Below, one piece after another: positions 3,466-22,688 of a DNA stretch of 64,000 nucleotides; positions within the stretch are counted from its first letter, which is position 1; each line of letters begins with the position of its first letter. This DNA comes from an uncultured Candidatus Saccharibacteria bacterium (GTDB lineage: Bacteria > Patescibacteriota > Minisyncoccia > Phycocordibacterales > CSBR16-119): the NCBI GenBank assembly GCA_964589975.1, contig CAZPVH010000001.1, positions 164,853-228,852 on the forward strand. The letters run 5' to 3'. Both the position numbers and the translations under genes were made by a program. The notes beneath the pieces were generated by a model. The model was not told the origin of the DNA and ran no database searches. It was given only the letters and a program-made list of their open reading frames with translations.

Positions 3466-4872
3466 TTAGAATTCATCGAATGAATTTTTTGCCTGCGTTG
3501 GTGTCGTTACGCCAAAGTCACCATTCTTTTCTATTGATAGGAAAGTAGAATTTTTCTCGTCGAAGAACAGATCCACTTTACCAACAGGACCATTTCGGTG
3601 TTTCTCGATGAGGATCTCAGCGATACCCGTGGACTCGGCATCGGTTCGGGTGCCCGCACGGTCTTCGCGGTGTATGAACATGACCACATCGGCGTCCTGC
3701 TCGATGGAACCGGAGTCTCGAAGGTCAGACAGACGTGGTTTGCCGCCACGTGATTCCACCGCACGAGAGAGCTGTGACAGGGCGAGCACTGGTACATCGA
3801 GCTCTCGGGCAAGACCTTTCAACGAGCGGGAAATTTCTGTAACTTGGTTCACCATACTGTCATAGTTTTTTGATGTGGTCATGAGCTGGAGATAGTCAAT
3901 GACGATGAGCCCAAGGCCGAACTCACTCTTCAGGCGTCTTGCGACGGACTTCATTTTAATAATTGAGTTACCGGCCTGATCATCAATATATATTGGAGCT
4001 TGAGAAAGCTCGTTAAGAGAATCACGGATTTTGCCGAAGTCATTTTCGTTTGTAATTTTTCCAGTTCGAAGTTTCCAAGCGTCGACATGCGACTGAGCAG
4101 AGAGCATGCGCTGGGTTAACTGATTGGCGCTCATTTCAAGTGAGAAGATACCGACAGGGATCTTTGATTTGACGGCGGCGTTTCTCGCAATATCGAGCGC
4201 GAGAGTAGTTTTACCGACGGATGGACGTGCGGCCAAGATGATGAGGTCAGACTTATGAAGTCCGCCAAGGAGGTTATCAAGCGCCGGATATCCTGTCGGT
4301 ACGCCACCAGGGCCGCCGTCTCCGCTATGAAGCTTTTCAAGCTGATCCCAAACCTCCGTCAAACTTTGTTTGATCGATACGAATTTCTGACCTTTTGGGT
4401 CGCCGGTAATGGCAAAGATTTTTTTCTCTGCTTCGTCCATGATTGTCTCGACATCGGTATCGGATTCGGAAAAACCGACGGTCGAGAGGTGCTCGCCGGC
4501 CTCGATGAGCTTTCTCATCAGCGCTTTCTTATATACGATACCCGCGTAATGTTTTACGTTAGTTGAAGCTGGTACTGAGTTCGTGAGATCGGTCAGGTAT
4601 GCTCGGCCACCGATCTGTTCGAGTTGGCCGCGGCTCTTGAGACTTGTTGAAAGCGAGAGCAGGTCGATCGGCTCATTCTTTGAAAAAAGGTCGATCATGG
4701 CCTTGAATATTATTCGGTGCTTTTCTGAGTAGCACGACTCGGCATTGAAGATATCAATGATTTCGTTCAGCGCGGCTGGGTTTAACATTATAGATCCGAG
4801 GGTTGCTTGCTCGGCATCCAAGTCGTGTGGTGGCACGCGCACGTGTTTAGGTTTTATCGGGGCTTCAGACAT
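3466..4872 (-). CDS. dnaB: Replicative DNA helicase DnaB
   Basis: 468 aa; Walker A ARPSVGKTTLAL, DnaB N-domain, SEQDADVVMFIHRED motif; 2-nt gap to recR. Confidence 0.9.
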   Translation of the reverse strand: MSEAPIKPKHVRVPPHDLDAEQATLGSIMLNPAALNEIIDIFNAESCYSEKHRIIFKAMIDLFSKNEPIDLLSLSTSLKSRGQLEQIGGRAYLTDLTNSVPASTNVKHYAGIVYKKALMRKLIEAGEHLSTVGFSESDTDVETIMDEAEKKIFAITGDPKGQKFVSIKQSLTEVWDQLEKLHSGDGGPGGVPTGYPALDNLLGGLHKSDLIILAARPSVGKTTLALDIARNAAVKSKIPVGIFSLEMSANQLTQRMLSAQSHVDAWKLRTGKITNENDFGKIRDSLNELSQAPIYIDDQAGNSIIKMKSVARRLKSEFGLGLIVIDYLQLMTTSKNYDSMVNQVTEISRSLKGLARELDVPVLALSQLSRAVESRGGKPRLSDLRDSGSIEQDADVVMFIHREDRAGTRTDAESTGIAEILIEKHRNGPVGKVDLFFDEKNSTFLSIEKNGDFGVTTPTQAKNSFDEF

Positions 4873-17741: not shown

Positions 17742-17933
17742 AAAATCAATTTTAAGGCAGAATTGGATTTACATAGAAGGGTTACACTGGCTTCGCATTC
17801 ATCTACGCAATATTTAGCTGGTGTGGTTTTTATGTAGCAATAGGGAAGAATACCTGTCCTGTTGATGTTTAGTTTTAGAAAGAGTACCGTTTGCTGGTAA
17901 AAGTTTGTGTAAAGCCATGGGTCTCAAACTAAA

Positions 17934-17962
17934 AGCACCGCACTCCTCGCGGTGCTTTTAAA
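17934..17962. terminator. Bidirectional terminator
   Basis: gcaccgc actcctc gcggtgc hairpin with T-runs on both strands. Confidence 0.6.
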
Positions 17963-17980
17963 CCAAACAAAGTTGGTGTG

Positions 17981-18256
17981 CTAAATGTTATCCTTAATCC
18001 ACATAGAATGCTTGTCAGTTAGACCACCCCAAGCGGCAGCGTCACTTGTAATATTTATTACAAGCAACCGATCGTTGCTGTCAATGTATGAATTCGTGAT
18101 TGTGTCACGAACCTCTTTTGCTGACTTACCAGTCTTAATTAACCACAATGATTCTAGTGGTTTAACGAAGCCTGAGTATGTCTGAAGATGGTCCCAAAGA
18201 GCTTGATAGTTTTTTTCAGGACTACGAAGATCATAGTTAATGAGAATTGTGTTCAA
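17981..18256 (-). CDS. Hypothetical 91-aa protein at the edge of the AT-rich island
   Basis: MNTILINYDLRSPEKNYQALWDHLQTY...; N-terminal beta-strand ILINYDL is reminiscent of Cas2/VapD-like ferredoxin folds but is unverified. Confidence 0.45.
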   Translation of the reverse strand: MNTILINYDLRSPEKNYQALWDHLQTYSGFVKPLESLWLIKTGKSAKEVRDTITNSYIDSNDRLLVINITSDAAAWGGLTDKHSMWIKDNI

Positions 18257-18475
18257 GTGTCTGTTGATATCTTTACTGTTAAATGCAGACTGTCAGTGAT
18301 ATATTTGTAGTGTAGTTACATATCGGTTATTTTGAACGCGAGACGACCTGATAGAGGGTTACCAATTCGCGGAAAATGTTCAATCTGGAAAGGCTGCCTC
18401 AATATGGCAGCTTTTCGTTTATATTTTATGCTATAGGGGTTTTCTGTCAACCTTGTCAACTATGTGGAAAAGTAT

Positions 18476-18503
18476 TTGCTAACTTTTGACAAGGTAGTAT
18501 AAT
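18476..18503 (+). promoter_or_regulatory. Promoter for the LexA-like gene (leaderless; TATAAT 6 nt before the ATG) with flanking inverted repeats
   Basis: ttgcta-N16-tataat; inverted repeat CTTGTCAA (18451-18458) / TTGACAAG (18487-18494); tandem TGTCAAC x2. Confidence 0.4.
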
Positions 18504-18509
18504 GTTCAC

Positions 18510-19154
18510 ATGCATCCAATACAAGAAAAGTTACTAAAAATCATTAGTGAGAAGAATATTGGGGATCTCACACTACGTGATATCGGTGATCTAATTGCCG
18601 AAAAGTTACCTCAGAAGATTAAACACCACCTTTTTCAGCTTGAGAGGAAGGGGTTTATTGTTGTCGACAAGAAAAAAAAGTCTATCACTAGAGTGATCGG
18701 TGCAAAAAAGACTCCAAAAGAAATGTTTATTTCCTTACCTATAGTCGGATCAGCTAATTGTGGTCCTCAAACTATTTATGCCGAACAAAACATTGAAGGT
18801 TATTTGAAAGTCTCTAAAAGAATAGTTCCAAAGGCTAATAATGTATTTATACTTCGTGCTGAAGGAAATTCATTGAATAGAGCAGACATAAAAGGTAAGA
18901 GTGTAGAGGATGGTGATTTTGTCATTGTTGATAGTGAAAGTACATCTCCAAAAAATAATGATTATATTGTTTCGATAATTAGTGGCTTGGCAAATATTAA
19001 AAAATACGTGTTTGATAAAGAAAATTCACAAATTGTCCTACTCTCAGAATCTTCACAACATTTTGATCCCATATTTATACATCAAGATGATGATTTTAGG
19101 GTTAACGGTAAAGTGATTGGCGTAATTAAAAAACCTAAGTTTATTAGCCATTAG
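18510..19154 (+). CDS. LexA-like repressor (N-terminal winged-helix plus C-terminal S24 autopeptidase)
   Basis: wHTH N-domain; PIVGSANCGP cleavage-site region, S24 Ser (AEGNSL) and Lys (ANIKKY); very low GC. Confidence 0.75.
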   Translation: MHPIQEKLLKIISEKNIGDLTLRDIGDLIAEKLPQKIKHHLFQLERKGFIVVDKKKKSITRVIGAKKTPKEMFISLPIVGSANCGPQTIYAEQNIEGYLKVSKRIVPKANNVFILRAEGNSLNRADIKGKSVEDGDFVIVDSESTSPKNNDYIVSIISGLANIKKYVFDKENSQIVLLSESSQHFDPIFIHQDDDFRVNGKVIGVIKKPKFISH

Positions 19155-19162
19155 TTAGTTAA

Positions 19163-19927
19163 TTGATTATAATTACATTTATGAAAACTGTTGAGTGTAT
19201 AAAAATAAAAATTGAAAAAAAGCAGACACCTCTAGATTGGAACGATTGGAAAAATACTATCCAACAAATGGATTGTTTGACTGGCCTACAACACATCCCA
19301 GATGGTTCTATTGATTTAATTGTTACAGATCCGCCTTACGGAATAAGTAAACAACTAAATTGTAAAGGAAAGAGGCTTGGATCAACAGCTAAACTAGATT
19401 TTGATTTCGGTGAGTGGGATACTTTTAGCAAGGACTGGTTCCATATCGCCGTAAAAAAGACTCGTGGGTGGATGATGACTTTTTGTGCAAAAAAAGATGT
19501 TGGCTTTTTTATTGACACTCTAGAGAAAGAAGGCTTTATAGCTGTTGATGTATTGGTTTGGCAAAAACCTGATCCGGTCCCTCTTAATGCAAAATCACGC
19601 TTTTTAAACGCATGGGAAGCTGTTGTTATAGGTAAGCGTCCAGGTTCAACTTGGAATAGCACTTATGAGCACAATATAATCAAATGCCAAGCTCCAAAGG
19701 GTAAAAATAGATTTCATCCAACACAAAAACCAGTTGAATTGATTAAAAAACTTATATCATTGGCAACGAAAGAAGGAGATATTGTTCTTGACCCATTTAT
19801 GGGTAGCGGAACTACTGCGGTTGCATGTGTAGAATCAAAAAGAAACTATATTGGTTTTGAATTATCAAAGGAATACCACAAGATGGCGCTAAATAGAATT
19901 AAAGAGTTGCCCACTCAACTATTTTAA
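19163..19927 (+). CDS. DNA methyltransferase, beta-class (N6-adenine or N4-cytosine), M1
   Basis: motif IV LIVTDPPYG near the N-terminus, HPTQKP, motif I DIVLDPFMGSGTT near the C-terminus; 9 nt after the LexA-like stop. Confidence 0.85.
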   Translation: MIIITFMKTVECIKIKIEKKQTPLDWNDWKNTIQQMDCLTGLQHIPDGSIDLIVTDPPYGISKQLNCKGKRLGSTAKLDFDFGEWDTFSKDWFHIAVKKTRGWMMTFCAKKDVGFFIDTLEKEGFIAVDVLVWQKPDPVPLNAKSRFLNAWEAVVIGKRPGSTWNSTYEHNIIKCQAPKGKNRFHPTQKPVELIKKLISLATKEGDIVLDPFMGSGTTAVACVESKRNYIGFELSKEYHKMALNRIKELPTQLF

Positions 19928-20911
19928 TTTTTGGTCTGATGAATAAATAAGTTTTGCTTTGATATCTCGTGCGTCCTTAACAGATAAGGAGGCTTGCTTC
20001 CTTCTTATTTCTTTACCTTGATCTTTATACCTTACTTCTTTTACTTTTAATTTCTTTTTAAGTAATTTAACAATCTTTTTTGTATCTGCTTCGTATATTT
20101 TTTTTACAACAAAATCATTTTTATCAACGGTGGCAAGAATTATGCTTTTATCTGTCATGTATTTCTTCAAAACATCTTTTGAAATATCTTGAAAACTCCA
20201 ACTCGATCCTTTTGCCACTTTGTATTCATACATATTACCAAAAGCATCTGTAGCGTCATGTTTTGATTGTTCAGACTGAACCTTATGTCCTAAGCGCAAA
20301 GCTACTAAAACCTCCCAAAACTTGTTGCTAGTTAAAATGTCACTGGTGCCAACCTGCTGTTCAATTTTTAAAATAACGTCAACAATCTTTTTAATCCATT
20401 CAGAATAAATTCCAGAGCACAATCCCGTGGTTGTCTTTTTTTTGAAAGCCAGGGTTGTTTCGATCTGCCTAGGTCCCACATTGATCATTTTTCTATTATT
20501 AGTAATTCGTTTTGTAGCTTCAAATAGATACCCCGATATTATTATTCCGGGAACTTCGTAGTACCAGTCAAATACCGGAAACGGAACATTTTCATCTTGT
20601 ATGTGAGCAAAGATAACACTTTTGGCTTTGATCAATTTCTCGATTGTTGTGTCTGAAAAATCATTAAATGTCCAGGTGTGATTGGAGCTACTCTCCTTGT
20701 AATGCTTATACTCAAATTCGTTACCATCGTCGTCTTTTGCGTCTCTTGATCCTGAATGACCAGAAATAAGCTTATGATTCAACGTGTCAGCGATAAGTAC
20801 CTCAAATATCTTACTATTTGTTATAATGTCTGTAACACCGAAGGTGGCATAGAAATCAGCCTGAATTTTCTTGAGTTGCCCTATAAGGTTTTCTGTGTCA
20901 TTAGTGTCCAT
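19919..20911 (-). CDS. Putative restriction endonuclease with two tandem PD-(D/E)xK modules (single-chain pseudo-dimer)
   Basis: internal repeat: ...FEVLIADTLNHKLISG...DAKDDDGNEFEYK... and ...WEVLVALRLGHKVQSE...DATDAFGNMYEYK...; each has a D...EYK catalytic signature; flanked by two methyltransferases. Confidence 0.6.
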   Translation of the reverse strand: MDTNDTENLIGQLKKIQADFYATFGVTDIITNSKIFEVLIADTLNHKLISGHSGSRDAKDDDGNEFEYKHYKESSSNHTWTFNDFSDTTIEKLIKAKSVIFAHIQDENVPFPVFDWYYEVPGIIISGYLFEATKRITNNRKMINVGPRQIETTLAFKKKTTTGLCSGIYSEWIKKIVDVILKIEQQVGTSDILTSNKFWEVLVALRLGHKVQSEQSKHDATDAFGNMYEYKVAKGSSWSFQDISKDVLKKYMTDKSIILATVDKNDFVVKKIYEADTKKIVKLLKKKLKVKEVRYKDQGKEIRRKQASLSVKDARDIKAKLIYSSDQKLK

Positions 20912-20914
20912 ATA

Positions 20915-21736
20915 ATGAAAACTATATCAATAAAAACTAAAATAAGCACTACCGACGAAAACGCATTGATTTTTGGTGATGCAATAGCAATTTTAAAATC
21001 CCTACCTGATAATTCAGTTGATCATTGTTTTACTGATCCGCCATATAACATATCTGGATACGACAATAAGAAAAAGATAGGCTGGCTTCAGTCAAACAAG
21101 ACATGGGTTGAAGAAAAGAAATTTACAAAGATAGATGCAAAGTGGGATAAATTTTCCGACGACGATTATGTTGCTTTTACCAAAGCGTGGATATTGGAAG
21201 TTATGAGGGTTTTGAAACCAAACGGTAATATTATTATTTTCGGTTCGTATCATAATATCTATAAAATTGGTTCCATACTCCAAGATTTTGATCGAAAATT
21301 AATAAATTCTATTACATGGTATAAAAGAAATGCCTTTCCAAATGTAACGCAAAGAATGTTTTGTGAAAGCACAGAGCATATTATCTGGGCTGTAAATGAG
21401 ACACAGAAAAAAGCAAAGAATTGGAAATTTAATTATAAGGAAATGAAGGCCTTAAATGGAGGTGTCCAGATGAGAAACATGTGGGACATTGTCGCAACTC
21501 CAACATCAGAGCGAGCTCATGGTAAGCACCCATCGCAAAAGCCAATCGAGATATTAAATCGTCTAGTAATAGGATGTAGTAATAAGGGCGACGTTATTAT
21601 CGATCCATTTATGGGTAGCGGCACCTTGCCCGTTGCTGCACAGATTAATGGCCGGAAATACATTGGTATTGATAGTGAGAAGGAATTTTGTGACCTTGCT
21701 CTAAAGAGGGTTAGGGCTAAAGAAAACCGATTATAA
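20915..21736 (+). CDS. DNA methyltransferase, beta-class (N6-adenine or N4-cytosine), M2
   Basis: FTDPPYN, HPSQKP, DPFMGSGT; ATG only 3 bp from the divergent endonuclease start codon. Confidence 0.85.
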   Translation: MKTISIKTKISTTDENALIFGDAIAILKSLPDNSVDHCFTDPPYNISGYDNKKKIGWLQSNKTWVEEKKFTKIDAKWDKFSDDDYVAFTKAWILEVMRVLKPNGNIIIFGSYHNIYKIGSILQDFDRKLINSITWYKRNAFPNVTQRMFCESTEHIIWAVNETQKKAKNWKFNYKEMKALNGGVQMRNMWDIVATPTSERAHGKHPSQKPIEILNRLVIGCSNKGDVIIDPFMGSGTLPVAAQINGRKYIGIDSEKEFCDLALKRVRAKENRL

Positions 21737-21743
21737 TAAATTT

Positions 21744-22688
21744 ATGCCACTATTTAAAATATATAACAATAAAGTAACAAAAATTGAAAAACGTAATATT
21801 CTTGAAAAAGATATTCAAAAGATAATAGAAGAAAATCTTCTAGAGATATTAGATATATACTTCCTAGGTACAGAATTTGTTACTACTGATGGACGAATAG
21901 ATTCCGTAGGTTTGGACAAGCATGGGTCGCCAGTAATTATTGAATATAAGAGATCCCAAAATAATAGCGTTATAAATCAAGCTACTTGGTATCTAGAATG
22001 GCTACTTGATCATAAAGAAAAGTTTGAAAAGCTTGTTGAAGATAAGTTAAAAAAACATTTTGTTAATGAGCTAAAAGATACTATGGAGCCAGTAGATTTT
22101 CCTACAATTGATTGGATGAATCCGCGCCTTATTTGTATAGCGGAAAGTTATAATAAATTTGATCTTGGCCTCGTGAAGTTTTTACCATTTAAAATTGAAC
22201 TTTTGAAATATCGTCTCTATGATGATCTATTGTCTATCGAGTCAGAGAATATACAAAAAGGTATGAGGATTAGTGAAAGAACAAACTCATTAGCAATTGA
22301 TGAAGATAGTAAGCCTATTAGAGAATACGGTAAGGAATATTTAATAACTGATCTGTTTAAAGATAGTTGGGCAGAGAGTCGTGAGCTCTTTGAGCAAATT
22401 CGTGAGAAAATTTTGGAGTTGGATAGTAATATTGAAGAGAAAATAACAAAACTTTATATTAGTTATAAAACAGAGAATATTTTCTGTGAGATAATACCTC
22501 AAGCTAAGGGCTTATGGATCCATGTCACAATTCCTATTGATAATGTTATGAAAAACAAAATAGAACTTCATGACGTAAGCGAGAAAGGGCACTGGGGAAC
22601 AGGCGAGACAAAATTCAGAGTAGAAAAACCATCTGAGGTAGATCTCGCTGTAGATTATATTAAGCAATCTTATGAGTTTGGCTTATAG
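21744..22688 (+). CDS. NucS/RecB-like PD-(D/E)xK nuclease-domain protein with an unknown C-terminal domain
   Basis: TDGRIDSVGLDKHGSPVIIEYKR matches the NucS/DUF91 nuclease core; about 200 aa C-terminal region unassigned; 7 nt after M2. Confidence 0.55.
   Translation: MPLFKIYNNKVTKIEKRNILEKDIQKIIEENLLEILDIYFLGTEFVTTDGRIDSVGLDKHGSPVIIEYKRSQNNSVINQATWYLEWLLDHKEKFEKLVEDKLKKHFVNELKDTMEPVDFPTIDWMNPRLICIAESYNKFDLGLVKFLPFKIELLKYRLYDDLLSIESENIQKGMRISERTNSLAIDEDSKPIREYGKEYLITDLFKDSWAESRELFEQIREKILELDSNIEEKITKLYISYKTENIFCEIIPQAKGLWIHVTIPIDNVMKNKIELHDVSEKGHWGTGETKFRVEKPSEVDLAVDYIKQSYEFGL

What the first reader, a model, noticed from the sequence alone, without database searches (positions are those of the whole stretch)
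18440..19170. LexA/CI-type S24 repressor transcribed leaderlessly from an operator-rich promoter and read straight into a DNA methyltransferase gene
TATAAT ends 6 nt before the ATG, so the mRNA would be leaderless. The promoter is framed by an inverted repeat CTTGTCAA(18451)...TTGACAAG(18487) plus tandem TGTCAAC copies, which are plausible self-operators. A plus-strand hairpin terminator at 18387-18415 insulates the unit from upstream. A self-cleaving repressor physically coupled to an MTase (9-nt gap) would tie modification and restriction balance to RecA activation. That is an unusual alternative to HTH C-protein control.
Basis: partly seen in the sequence, partly recalled or inferred. Interest (0 to 1): 0.7.

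Follow-up and report, generated by a model that had tools for sequence, protein, structure and literature searches.

The report
LexA repressor module heading restriction-modification cassettes
A self-cleaving LexA-type DNA-damage repressor gene, with its own repeat-rich leaderless promoter, sits directly in front of a restriction-modification system here and in front of many different restriction-modification systems in related ultra-small (CPR/Patescibacteria) bacteria, which suggests that these cells wire DNA defence to the DNA-damage response.

Summary
Window 18510-19154 encodes a 214-aa canonical LexA-type protein: a winged HTH plus an S24 domain with Ser121/Lys164 and a Cys84-Gly85 cleavage site. 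TATAAT ends 6 nt before its ATG. The promoter carries a tandem TGTCAA-N3-TGTCAA box, a TGTGGAAAA element and an inverted TTGACA between the -35 and -10 hexamers. A strong plus-strand terminator hairpin lies just upstream.

Two corrections:
- The methyltransferase most likely starts at ATG 19181, giving a 26-nt gap, and has its own -10 element.
- Leaderless promoters are common throughout this genome.

The protein belongs to the Patescibacteria LexA family. It falls in one monophyletic clade in which 23 of 26 assessable species-level loci have a DNA methyltransferase 37 nt or less downstream on the same strand. These enzymes come from five architectures, and an MmeI-type fusion turned up in a further lookup. 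A sister clade instead sits in fixed housekeeping synteny. DNA homology between loci breaks at the hairpin and at the 3' end of lexA, so hairpin, operators and lexA form a portable module.

Best reading (inferred, untested): an autorepressed, RecA-sensitive promoter reads into the first restriction-modification gene. I found no published description. I rate it a new variant of a known kind, interest about 0.7.

The parts
18388..18416 (+). Intrinsic-terminator hairpin. It marks the left edge of the conserved LexA module.
   Evidence: It has 11 pairs, a 7-nt loop and a T-rich tail. Folding gives dG -18.9 kcal/mol and z -5.5, against -13.9 on the minus strand, where no U-tract follows. DNA homology to L006 and L007 starts at 18384. 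A structurally equivalent hairpin is present in L007.
18423..18450 (-). Leftward promoter-like site, TTGACA-16-TAAAAT, pointing at the divergent 91-aa ORF. Its -35 is the first TGTCAA unit of the tandem box.
   Evidence: It is the best consensus match in the region, 11 of 12 positions. The TATTTTA block and the first TGTCAA are nearly invariant in the 24-locus alignment.
18445..18459 (+). Tandem direct repeat TGTCAA-N3-TGTCAA, the candidate LexA (SOS) box.
   Evidence: It is unique in the window, with 0.05 expected. With one mismatch or fewer, 56 of 69 occurrences in 805 kb of related loci lie under 140 nt upstream of the lexA homologue. A second copy lies at the recA start in the recA-linked subclade.
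18463..18471 (+). TGTGGAAAA element. It is in register as a third 9-bp unit and differs at one position from the DnaA-box consensus TTATCCACA. Its role is unknown.
   Evidence: It sits at -47/-48 in almost all clade A loci. Of 81 TGTGGAWAA occurrences in 790 kb of loci, 59 lie under 130 nt upstream of lexA homologues.
18476..18503 (+). Rightward promoter TTGCTA-16-TATAAT. The predicted transcription start falls on the A of the ATG, so the mRNA would be leaderless.
   Evidence: It matches 10 of 12 consensus positions. The -10 ends exactly 6 nt before the ATG in 25 of 27 clade A loci.
18486..18495 (+). Inverted copy of the box unit, TTGACAAGGT, inside the -35/-10 spacer. It is the candidate operator that would occlude RNA polymerase.
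   Evidence: It forms a perfect 10-nt inverted repeat with 18450-18459. TTGACA lies 6-7 nt upstream of the -10 in 24 of 27 clade A loci. In clade B the same hexamer serves as the -35 instead.
18510..19154 (+). lexA-like gene: 214 aa, a winged HTH plus an S24 autopeptidase domain.
   Evidence: Pfam Peptidase_S24 scores E 1.6e-18. TIGR00498 lexA scores 95.7 bits, below its 110.95 cut-off. A family profile aligns almost full-length to E. coli LexA structures. The AF2 N-domain has pLDDT 81-93, and the top Foldseek hits are full-length LexA. C84-G85, S121 and K164 align to LexA A84-G85, S119 and K156. G85, S121 and K164 are invariant in 81 of 81 homologues.
19168..19173 (+). TATAAT in the lexA-M1 junction, 7 nt before ATG 19181. 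It is a likely separate, basal promoter for M1.
   Evidence: A -10-like hexamer is present in 20 of 24 lexA-MTase junctions. An extended -10 (TGnTAnnnT) is present in 12 of 24, against 1.3 expected from shuffles. The window's own junction lacks the TG.
19181..19927 (+). M1, a beta-class N6/N4 DNA methyltransferase on the same strand as lexA with no terminator between them.
   Evidence: Pfam N6_N4_Mtase scores E 4.5e-41. PADLOC MTase_II scores E 1.3e-54. The start codon is supported by L007.
19919..20911 (-). Restriction endonuclease, an internally duplicated PvuII-like protein. It converges on M1 with a 9-nt overlap.
   Evidence: Pfam Endonuc-PvuII scores E 1.7e-5 on the C-terminal half. PADLOC REase_II matches the N-terminal half. 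The two halves are 43% identical, E 4e-15.
20915..21736 (+). M2, a second beta-class (CcrM-like) methyltransferase, divergent from R. It marks the right edge of the cassette shared with L007.
   Evidence: Pfam N6_N4_Mtase scores E 3.1e-47. It is 26% identical to M1. Homology to L007 ends at 21738.
17981..18256 (-). Divergent 91-aa ORF of unknown family. It is a variable left-hand neighbour and not a conserved partner.
   Evidence: It has no Pfam, NCBIfam or PADLOC hit. It is shared only with L001. Other clade A loci carry DUF3892, HNH-like or other small genes at this position.

Best explanation
Window 18384-19154 is a portable regulatory module consisting of a terminator hairpin, a repeat-rich bidirectional promoter and a canonical LexA-family gene. 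It has been joined to the 5' side of a Type II restriction-modification cassette (M1, a tandem PvuII-like R, and M2).

Proposed mechanism:
- The LexA-like protein dimerises and binds the TGTCAA-type units. These are the tandem box at -65/-56 and the inverted unit in the -35/-10 spacer.
- Binding represses LexA's own leaderless promoter and the leftward promoter.
- No terminator separates lexA from M1, so transcription from this promoter continues into the methyltransferase gene. M1 also has a weak promoter of its own for basal protection.
- When RecA filaments form on single-stranded DNA, after DNA damage, self-restriction or phage attack, the repressor cleaves itself at Cys84-Gly85 using Ser121/Lys164. 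The promoter opens and methyltransferase output rises. In sister cassettes the whole R-M enzyme would rise.
- On arrival in a cell without repressor, the same circuit would give an early burst of methyltransferase and then shut down.

Shown here: the protein's family and intact catalytic and cleavage residues; the conserved promoter and operator layout; the module boundaries; the clade-wide linkage to methyltransferase genes of unrelated families.

Inferred only: DNA binding to these repeats, co-transcription, RecA-dependent cleavage, and the physiological purpose.
For: Identity:
- The S24 domain and LexA-type winged HTH are supported.
- Alignment to E. coli LexA places C84-G85, S121 and K164 on the cleavage site and catalytic dyad.
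- G85, S121 and K164 are invariant in 81 of 81 homologues, and position 84 is Cys in 75 and Ala in 6.

Linkage:
- In the NJ tree the window falls in a monophyletic clade A.
- In that clade, 23 of 26 assessable species-representative loci have a DNA methyltransferase on the same strand 37 nt or less after the stop codon. A 24th has one at +289.
- The enzymes belong to N6_N4, D12, C5, Eco57I/TaqI_C and fused C5+Eco57I families. An MmeI-type R-M fusion was found in a further lookup.
- The partner nucleases include PvuII-like, BstXI, HinfI and Alw26I types.
- All 8 sampled close protein homologues show the same linkage.
- The sister clade B has fixed synteny instead: phosphoketolase, lexA, mscL, P-type ATPase.

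Modularity:
- Homology to L006 covers only 18384-19139. Homology to L001 covers 17931-19138 and is followed by a different R-M system. Homology to L007 covers 18384-21738.
- Flanking genes of clade A loci are not syntenic.
- The region 18000-22500 has 31-39% GC against 45-52% in the flanks.
- One LexA-M-R-C unit of 3.86 kb is 99.9% identical in different genomic contexts and is bounded by 64-bp inverted repeats.

Promoter:
- The order and spacing of box, TGTGGAWAA, -35, TTGACA, -10 and ATG are conserved in 24-25 of 27 clade A loci.
- The tandem box is almost exclusive to lexA upstream regions, and occurs at recA in the nested subclade.
- No terminator-like site lies between 18652 and 19981.

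Literature: the Patescibacteria LexA motif is cited as a direct repeat in PMC7739468.
Against: - Nothing here demonstrates binding, cleavage or co-transcription.
- The main tandem box lies upstream of the -35 of the rightward promoter. Only the single inverted unit overlaps the core promoter, so repression of lexA-M1 may be weak or may need cooperativity or looping.
- Many lexA-M junctions carry their own (extended) -10 element, so the methyltransferase may not depend on the LexA promoter.
- The LexA tree does not follow R-M type. This also fits repeated insertion of R-M cassettes next to a resident lexA.
- No box was found near R, near M2, or near nucleases in other cassettes.
- I could not check whether the host genome has a second, housekeeping lexA.
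- The recognition helix is the same across all clades, so a resident LexA would cross-repress an incoming cassette. This weakens the establishment-timer idea.
Confidence: 0.6

Rival explanations
1. This is the cell's ordinary chromosomal LexA, and the neighbourhood is an insertion hotspot. R-M and other defence cassettes land just downstream of lexA. The adjacency would then have no regulatory meaning, and each methyltransferase would run from its own promoter.
For: - The family is the Patescibacteria LexA. Its recognition helix is conserved in all clades, and the same box occurs next to recA in a nested subclade.
- Among the 80 best species-level loci, no assembly contributed two copies.
- R-M type does not follow the LexA tree.
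- Junctions often hold an extended -10 element.
- Other cassettes in the window (PDC-S18, 21744-22688) have their own TATAAT-6-ATG start.
Against: - The lexA gene itself lies inside the low-GC island.
- Flanks on both sides of clade A loci are non-syntenic, whereas clade B keeps strict synteny.
- Clade A (65-70% identity) spans MAGs labelled as very different CPR lineages. One lineage label (Yanofskybacteria) appears both in clade A and in a distant clade.
- A LexA-M-R-C unit moves or inverts as one piece between 64-bp inverted repeats.
- Orientation is always the same, and the gap is always 37 nt or less with no terminator.
Confidence: 0.2
2. The module acts as an establishment and homeostasis controller only, a functional analogue of C proteins or of self-repressing methyltransferases. 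It would give a burst of methyltransferase on entry and then hold it down. The S24 self-cleavage would play no signalling role beyond protein turnover.
For: - Negative autoregulation follows from operators sitting in the gene's own promoter.
- Sister cassettes combine LexA-M with a classical C-R operon. This is the layout expected for 'M early, R late'.
- The module precedes the first gene of the cassette whatever its type, including an MmeI-type R-M fusion.
Against: - The cleavage-site Gly and the Ser/Lys dyad are invariant in 81 of 81 homologues. This argues that self-cleavage is under selection.
- A host LexA with the same specificity would pre-repress an incoming cassette.
Confidence: 0.12
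3. It is the maintenance repressor of a small mobile element, analogous to CI, SetR or ImmR. Its real targets would be mobility genes such as a serine recombinase, with R-M carried as cargo.
For: - Serine recombinases, an IS110 transposase and Bro-N/RhuM genes lie near some units.
- One unit has 64-bp terminal inverted repeats and is inverted between contigs.
- The conserved leftward promoter shares the box.
Against: - No recombinase or phage gene lies within the window island.
- The leftward neighbours are variable small genes.
- The N-domain is a LexA winged HTH, not a CI/Xre HTH.
- Only 1 full-length and 7 partial, distant matches were found in 2.9 million viral contigs.
- No box was found elsewhere in the loci.
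Confidence: 0.06

Closest known systems
Canonical LexA and the Patescibacteria SOS regulon (Sanchez-Osuna, Barbe and Erill 2017, Environ Microbiol 19:3465). The paper is cited in PMC7739468 and PMC8565304 but was not readable here.
   Same: It has the same protein architecture: a winged HTH plus an S24 domain with a Ser/Lys dyad and a cleavage-site Gly. The gene sits behind its own operators. The operator is a direct repeat, which is how PMC7739468 describes the Patescibacteria LexA motif. The same box lies beside recA in a nested subclade.
   Different: This clade is not in conserved housekeeping synteny. It forms a discrete, horizontally shuffled module that is almost always followed by a methyltransferase or R-M gene. 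Its promoter is rebuilt as a leaderless one with an extra inverted box unit in the spacer. I found no mention of R-M genes as LexA targets in the searchable literature.
Controller (C) proteins of Type II R-M systems (C.PvuII, C.AhdI, C.Esp1396I, C.Csp231I)
   Same: Both are small regulatory genes at the head of an R-M transcription unit, autoregulated through repeats in their own promoter. From memory, the pvuIIC transcript is also leaderless. Both would time and limit R-M expression.
   Different: C proteins are Xre-type HTH proteins of about 70-100 aa that activate and repress a C-R operon through C-boxes. The protein here is a 214-aa LexA with a self-cleaving domain, placed before M rather than R. 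In sister cassettes a classical C gene is present as well.
Methyltransferases that repress their own gene through an N-terminal HTH (M.SsoII, M.EcoRII, M.MspI). This comparison rests on my own knowledge.
   Same: Both apply negative feedback to methyltransferase transcription from an operator in the M promoter.
   Different: Here the repressor is a separate polypeptide of the LexA family and should be inactivated by RecA-stimulated cleavage. That adds a DNA-damage input.
DNA-damage-responsive regulators of other defence systems: CapH/CapP with CBASS (from memory), and WYL-domain BrxR/CapW with BREX and other systems (PMC9122589, title and abstract seen)
   Same: Both are portable repressor genes placed at the head of varied defence cassettes and thought to sense DNA damage or infection.
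   Different: They use different protein families and sensing chemistry: a metallopeptidase cleaving an HTH repressor, or WYL ligand binding, against LexA self-cleavage on RecA filaments. This LexA is not in PADLOC.
Restriction alleviation of Type I R-M after DNA damage via ClpXP (PMC4231737, PMC11109961; abstracts seen)
   Same: The possible purpose is the same: protecting unmodified chromosomal sites that arise during repair and recombination.
   Different: That mechanism is post-translational proteolysis of HsdR. The mechanism proposed here is transcriptional, acts on Type II systems and goes through LexA.

Membership tests
LexA (canonical SOS repressor) | C-terminal S24 peptidase domain with a Ser/Lys catalytic dyad | tested here: met
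   Pfam PF00717 scores E 1.6e-18. S121 and K164 align to E. coli S119 and K156 and are invariant in 81 of 81 homologues.
LexA (canonical SOS repressor) | Ala/Cys-Gly self-cleavage site in the linker before the S24 core | tested here: met
   LPIVGSANCG aligns to LPLVGRVAAG, so C84-G85 corresponds to A84-G85. Gly is invariant, and position 84 is Cys in 75 homologues and Ala in 6. From my own knowledge, Cys-Gly is the UmuD-type site.
LexA (canonical SOS repressor) | N-terminal LexA-type winged helix-turn-helix | tested here: met
   The AF2 model shows three helices plus a two-strand wing with pLDDT 81-93. The top Foldseek PDB hits are full-length LexA structures 3JSP, 3JSO, 1JHH, 8TRG and 3K2Z, E 7e-9 to 3e-7. 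The family profile aligns residues 23-207 to LexA 29-198. Caveat: the curated sequence models score below threshold, PF01726 at 16.9 against 23.7 and TIGR00498 at 95.7 against 110.95.
LexA (canonical SOS repressor) | Own gene preceded by its operator (autoregulation) | tested here: inconclusive
   Conserved repeat units lie upstream and inside the core promoter. Binding itself was not and cannot be tested here.
LexA (canonical SOS repressor) | Represses recA and DNA-repair genes of the same genome | not testable with these tools
   recA is not in the 64-kb window, and no further box occurs in the window. In the nested recA-linked subclade the box occurs at both recA and lexA.
LexA (canonical SOS repressor) | RecA-filament-stimulated self-cleavage | not testable with these tools
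   This needs biochemistry.
R-M controller (C) proteins | Small Xre-type HTH protein without other domains | tested here: not met
   The protein is 214 aa with a winged HTH plus an S24 domain and has no HTH_3/HTH_31 hit.
R-M controller (C) proteins | Gene placed upstream of, and co-oriented with, the endonuclease gene | tested here: not met
   It precedes M1, and R is on the opposite strand. In sister cassettes a separate HTH_3 gene occupies the C position.
Type II restriction-modification system | Separate methyltransferase(s) and endonuclease in one cluster | tested here: met
   M1 and M2 hit N6_N4_Mtase, and R hits PvuII-like and PADLOC REase_II models. The whole M-R-M block is shared with L007.
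CI/SetR/ImmR-type mobile-element S24 repressors | N-terminal Xre/CI-type HTH and control of phage or ICE lysogeny genes | tested here: not met
   The N-domain has the LexA fold. No phage or ICE genes lie in the island. Matches in viral contigs are few and distant.

The most novel reading that the evidence does not exclude
A horizontally mobile clade of canonical LexA has been recruited in CPR/Patescibacteria as a plug-in control module: terminator, box-rich leaderless promoter and lexA. It heads Type II R-M cassettes of any enzyme class and occasionally other defence genes such as Shedu, TIR and OLD-like ATPases. RecA-triggered self-cleavage would then gate immunity. It would either raise methylation to relieve self-restriction during DNA repair (a Type II 'restriction alleviation') or induce defence on infection. 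This would be the first R-M control circuit built on a self-cleaving SOS repressor.
Probability: 0.45. Interest if true: 0.85.

Novelty: new variant of a known kind. Interest (0 to 1): 0.72.

Why it matters
Regulation of Type II restriction-modification is known to use C proteins, self-repressing methyltransferases and antisense RNAs. None of these senses the state of the chromosome. DNA-damage-linked restriction alleviation is established only for Type I enzymes, where it works by proteolysis.

A LexA gene fused to the front of R-M operons would give Type II systems a direct RecA input. That makes two ideas testable: that cells raise protection when self-restriction or repair creates unmodified sites, or that they induce immunity on attack.

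It also bears on CPR bacteria, which mostly lack CRISPR and rely on R-M. They appear to assemble defence islands from cassettes with standard leaderless promoters. The LexA family would then be an example of a core stress regulator turned into mobile regulatory hardware.

In practical terms, the module is compact (about 770 bp), has clear boundaries, and could be tested in a heterologous host.

Tried and rejected
- Rfam and tRNA scans of the whole window found nothing, so no RNA element explains the region.
- I searched the window for further copies of the box to define a regulon. None is convincing: exact matches occur only at this promoter. Two-mismatch matches numbered 12 against 6.1 expected. 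One of them lies at the R/M2 start (20896-20910), but it sits inside coding sequence and cannot be told apart from codon constraint.
- I asked whether the divergent small ORF is a conserved partner. It is not: at least six unrelated small genes occupy that position.
- I asked whether the island has terminal inverted repeats like the L086 unit. None was found.
- I considered convergent-transcription control of R by read-through from M1. A terminator-like hairpin at 19982-20010 would limit it, but that hairpin is weak (z -1.6), so the idea is left open and not adopted.
- I considered reading the far inverted repeat as a single dimer operator and rejected it. The spacing between the arms varies between loci by a 10-nt insertion, and the flanking bases of the arms are not conserved.
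- I tried to read the 2017 Patescibacteria SOS paper, but it is not held.
- Five literature searches for LexA-linked R-M found nothing relevant.
- I could not test for a second lexA in the same genome.
- The viral-contig scan gave one distant full-length relative and seven partial ones.
Full report
**What is in the sequence**

The finding lies at the left end of a low-GC island. Roughly 18000-22500 has 31-39% GC, against 45-52% in the flanks. The genes in order are:
- a divergent 91-aa ORF at 17981-18256(-);
- a 214-aa S24-peptidase gene at 18510-19154(+);
- methyltransferase M1 at 19181-19927(+);
- a 330-aa PvuII-like endonuclease at 19919-20911(-);
- methyltransferase M2 at 20915-21736(+);
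- a DUF5655/NucS-like gene at 21744-22688(+), which matches the PADLOC candidate defence family PDC-S18.

- TATAAT at 18498-18503 is followed by 6 nt and the ATG.
- A perfect 10-nt inverted repeat joins 18450-18459 and 18486-18495. A repeat this long arose in 10 of 2000 shuffles.
- Tandem TGTCAAC copies lie at 18445 and 18454.
- A strong plus-strand hairpin with a T-rich tail lies at 18388-18416, with dG -18.9 kcal/mol and z -5.5.

Corrections:
- The -35 partner of the TATAAT is TTGCTA at 18476-18481, so the right-hand TTGACA arm lies inside the spacer.
- The methyltransferase most likely starts at ATG 19181, a 26-nt gap. The orthologous locus L007 has no start codon upstream of that ATG.

**The protein is a canonical LexA**
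- Besides the S24 domain (E 1.6e-18), it gives sub-threshold hits to the LexA DNA-binding domain and to TIGR00498 lexA.
- A profile of 22 homologues aligns almost end to end with E. coli LexA structures.
- An AlphaFold model has a confident three-helix, two-strand winged HTH at residues 1-61 (pLDDT 81-93). Its best Foldseek hits are full-length LexA crystal and cryo-EM structures.
- In 81 homologues G85, S121 and K164 are invariant. Residue 84 is Cys in 75 and Ala in 6. Cys-Gly is the UmuD-type cleavage site (my own knowledge).

**The family and its clades**

The protein has more than 1800 database relatives, and the best 120 are all at least 64% identical. Nearly all named ones come from Parcubacteria/Paceibacterota MAGs. 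Relatives occur in 319 species-representative genomes, of which the 80 best loci were fetched. A neighbour-joining tree with gene contexts separates three groups of interest.
- **Clade B** (22 loci) has fixed housekeeping synteny: phosphoketolase, lexA, mscL, P-type ATPase.
- **Clade A** (27 loci including the window) has flanks with no synteny.
- **A subclade nested in clade A** comes from MAGs labelled Chitinophagaceae. There lexA is divergent from recA and followed by endonuclease III.

**The linkage to restriction-modification**

In clade A, 23 of 26 assessable loci have a DNA methyltransferase on the same strand 37 nt or less after the lexA stop. One more has it at +289.

The enzymes are unrelated to one another: beta-class N6/N4, Dam-like D12, C5 (once preceded by Vsr), Eco57I/TaqI_C gamma-class, and a C5+Eco57I fusion. 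The recognisable nucleases are PvuII-like, BstXI, HinfI and Alw26I types.

Eight close protein homologues were looked up independently in metagenome assemblies, and all show the same linkage. One of them precedes an MmeI-type single-chain R-M enzyme.

Two sister cassettes also carry a classical HTH_3 C gene in front of R. LexA therefore does not replace the C protein. It occupies the methyltransferase side.

Some relatives are followed by other defence genes: Shedu SduA (L039), a ThsB-like TIR protein (L073), and OLD-like ATPases on a viral contig (L098).

**Modularity**
- DNA homology between the window and L006 covers only 18384-19139, that is hairpin, promoter and lexA. A BstXI-type system follows in L006.
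- Homology to L001 covers 17931-19138, and an Eco57I-type system follows.
- Homology to L007 covers 18384-21738, which is the whole M-R-M cassette but neither flank.

The unit 'hairpin, operators, lexA' thus has sharp edges at the hairpin and at the last codons of lexA, and it is recombined with different cassettes.

Elsewhere, a 3.86-kb LexA-M-R-C unit is 99.9% identical in contigs with different flanks. It is bounded by 64-bp inverted repeats and lies in opposite orientation relative to a neighbouring serine recombinase. The window island has no such terminal repeats.

**The promoter**

Across clade A the layout is nearly invariant:
- a leftward -10 (TAAAAT);
- TGTCAA-N3-TGTCAA at -75/-66 or -66/-57;
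- TGTGGAWAA at -48;
- a -35-like TTGnnn;
- TTGACA 6-7 nt before the -10;
- a -10 ending exactly 6 nt before the ATG, in 25 of 27 loci.

In clade B the same elements occur, but TTGACA serves as the -35 and a 20-35-nt leader follows.

The tandem box is close to diagnostic. With one mismatch or fewer, 56 of 69 occurrences in 805 kb lie just upstream of lexA. In the recA-linked subclade a second copy sits at the recA start. It persists there although the promoter has changed; by my reading of the sequences it resembles a Bacteroidota-type -7 element. This argues that the box is a protein-binding site and not merely a -35.

A direct-repeat LexA motif in Patescibacteria is reported in the literature (Sanchez-Osuna et al. 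2017, as cited in PMC7739468). I could not read that paper.

The recognition helix PQK(I/V)KHHL.QLE.KG is conserved in all clades. R-M-linked and chromosomal LexA proteins should therefore bind the same sites.

The TGTGGAWAA element equals or nearly equals the DnaA-box consensus (my own knowledge) and is strongly tied to lexA promoters: 59 of 81 occurrences. Its role is open.

**Leaderlessness**

The -10-to-ATG distance fits a transcript starting at the A of the ATG and is conserved. It is not special to this gene, however. Of 63 long first-ATG ORFs in the window, 9 have a -10-like hexamer exactly 6 nt upstream and 3 at 7 nt. Every other distance scores 0-2.

**Does transcription read into M1?**

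No terminator-like site lies between lexA and M1, and the orientation and short gap are universal. However, the junction has its own TATAAT 7 nt before ATG 19181. An extended -10 (TGnTAnnnT) is present in 12 of 24 junctions, against 1.3 expected.

The most economical model has two inputs. A basal promoter belongs to the cassette, and a LexA-controlled promoter belongs to the module. No box was found near R or M2.

**Mechanism (inference)**

LexA binds the box units and represses both the leftward promoter and its own leaderless promoter. RecA filaments formed after damage, self-restriction or infection trigger cleavage at Cys84-Gly85. The promoter opens and output of the first R-M gene rises. 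On entry into a repressor-free cell the same loop gives an early methyltransferase burst. I put about 0.6 on this regulatory coupling being real.

Rivals:
- An ordinary chromosomal lexA next to an insertion hotspot (0.2). This is weakened because lexA lies inside the low-GC island, because synteny is absent in clade A but strict in clade B, and because lexA moves with the cassette.
- A pure establishment and homeostasis controller (0.12).
- A mobile-element maintenance repressor (0.06).

**Comparison with known systems and novelty**

The protein meets the testable defining features of LexA and fails those of C proteins and of CI-type repressors (see the membership table). In function it resembles three things: C-protein or self-repressing-methyltransferase control; DNA-damage-responsive regulators of other defence systems (CapH/CapP, BrxR); and, in its possible purpose, Type I restriction alleviation.

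Five full-text searches and two reviews of R-M regulation gave no report of LexA-linked R-M systems. PADLOC has no model for this protein.

I rate it a new variant of a known kind, with interest about 0.7.

Noticed in passing
window 19919-20911 (-), with 19181-19927 and 20915-21736 (+): The endonuclease is an internal duplication of a PvuII-like unit; its halves are 43% identical over 84 aa, E 4e-15. It is flanked by two beta-class methyltransferases that are only 26% identical to each other. This layout suggests a single-chain pseudo-dimer cutting an asymmetric site, with one methyltransferase per strand.
   Followed up: partly
window 21744-22688 (+): A DUF5655/NucS_C-like gene matches the PADLOC candidate defence family PDC-S18 (E 2.9e-81). 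It has its own TATAAT-6-ATG start. It is not shared with L007, so it is a separate cassette in the same small defence island.
   Followed up: partly
whole window, e.g. starts at 4872(-), 6181(-), 8280(+), 16920(+), 21744(+), 30577(+), 36128(-), 43444(+): A -10-like hexamer lies exactly 6 nt (sometimes 7) before the first ATG at 12 of 63 long ORFs, with almost nothing at other distances. Leaderless mRNAs appear to be a general feature of this genome.
   Followed up: partly
window 18463-18471; position -48 in loci L006-L055: TGTGGAWAA, which equals or nearly equals the DnaA-box consensus TTATCCACA, is conserved in lexA promoters across the family. Of 81 occurrences in 790 kb, 59 are at lexA, and the element appears in either orientation in distant clades. 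It could be a third LexA box unit or a DnaA site.
   Followed up: partly
L086 3118-6978; also L087-L091: A 3.86-kb unit (two small ORFs, LexA, C5 methyltransferase, putative nuclease, HTH_3 C protein) is 99.9% identical in contigs with different flanks. It is bounded by 64-bp inverted repeats and lies in opposite orientation relative to an adjacent serine recombinase gene. It may be an invertible or transposable R-M cassette.
   Followed up: partly
L019-L021, L023, L024, L027, L031, L033: MAG contigs labelled Chitinophagaceae/Bacteroidota carry a canonical LexA of this family, about 63% identical to the window protein. It is divergent from recA, with TGTCAA-N3-TGTCAA boxes at both genes. PMC8565304 states that canonical LexA homologues are absent from Bacteroidetes. 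This is either horizontal transfer from CPR or mis-binning.
   Followed up: partly
L049 5664-5700 (about 130-150 nt upstream of a 421-aa ORF without Pfam hits): A tandem (TTTTCCACAATTGACAAG)x2 combines both promoter motifs in a different relative orientation, outside any lexA promoter and next to a serine recombinase.
   Followed up: no
L098 5001-9486 (IMG/VR contig); L039 6795-7574; L073 3293-3877: More distant LexA homologues are followed by other defence-type genes: two OLD-like AAA_15/TOPRIM ATPases, a Shedu SduA_C protein and a ThsB-like TIR protein. The linkage may extend beyond R-M.
   Followed up: partly
window 17981-18256 (-): A 91-aa ORF with a TTG start has no hit in Pfam, NCBIfam or PADLOC. 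It is shared with L001 (88% DNA identity) and lies downstream of the conserved leftward promoter.
   Followed up: no
window 1-64000: No tRNA gene and no Rfam family at gathering threshold were found in 64 kb.
   Followed up: no
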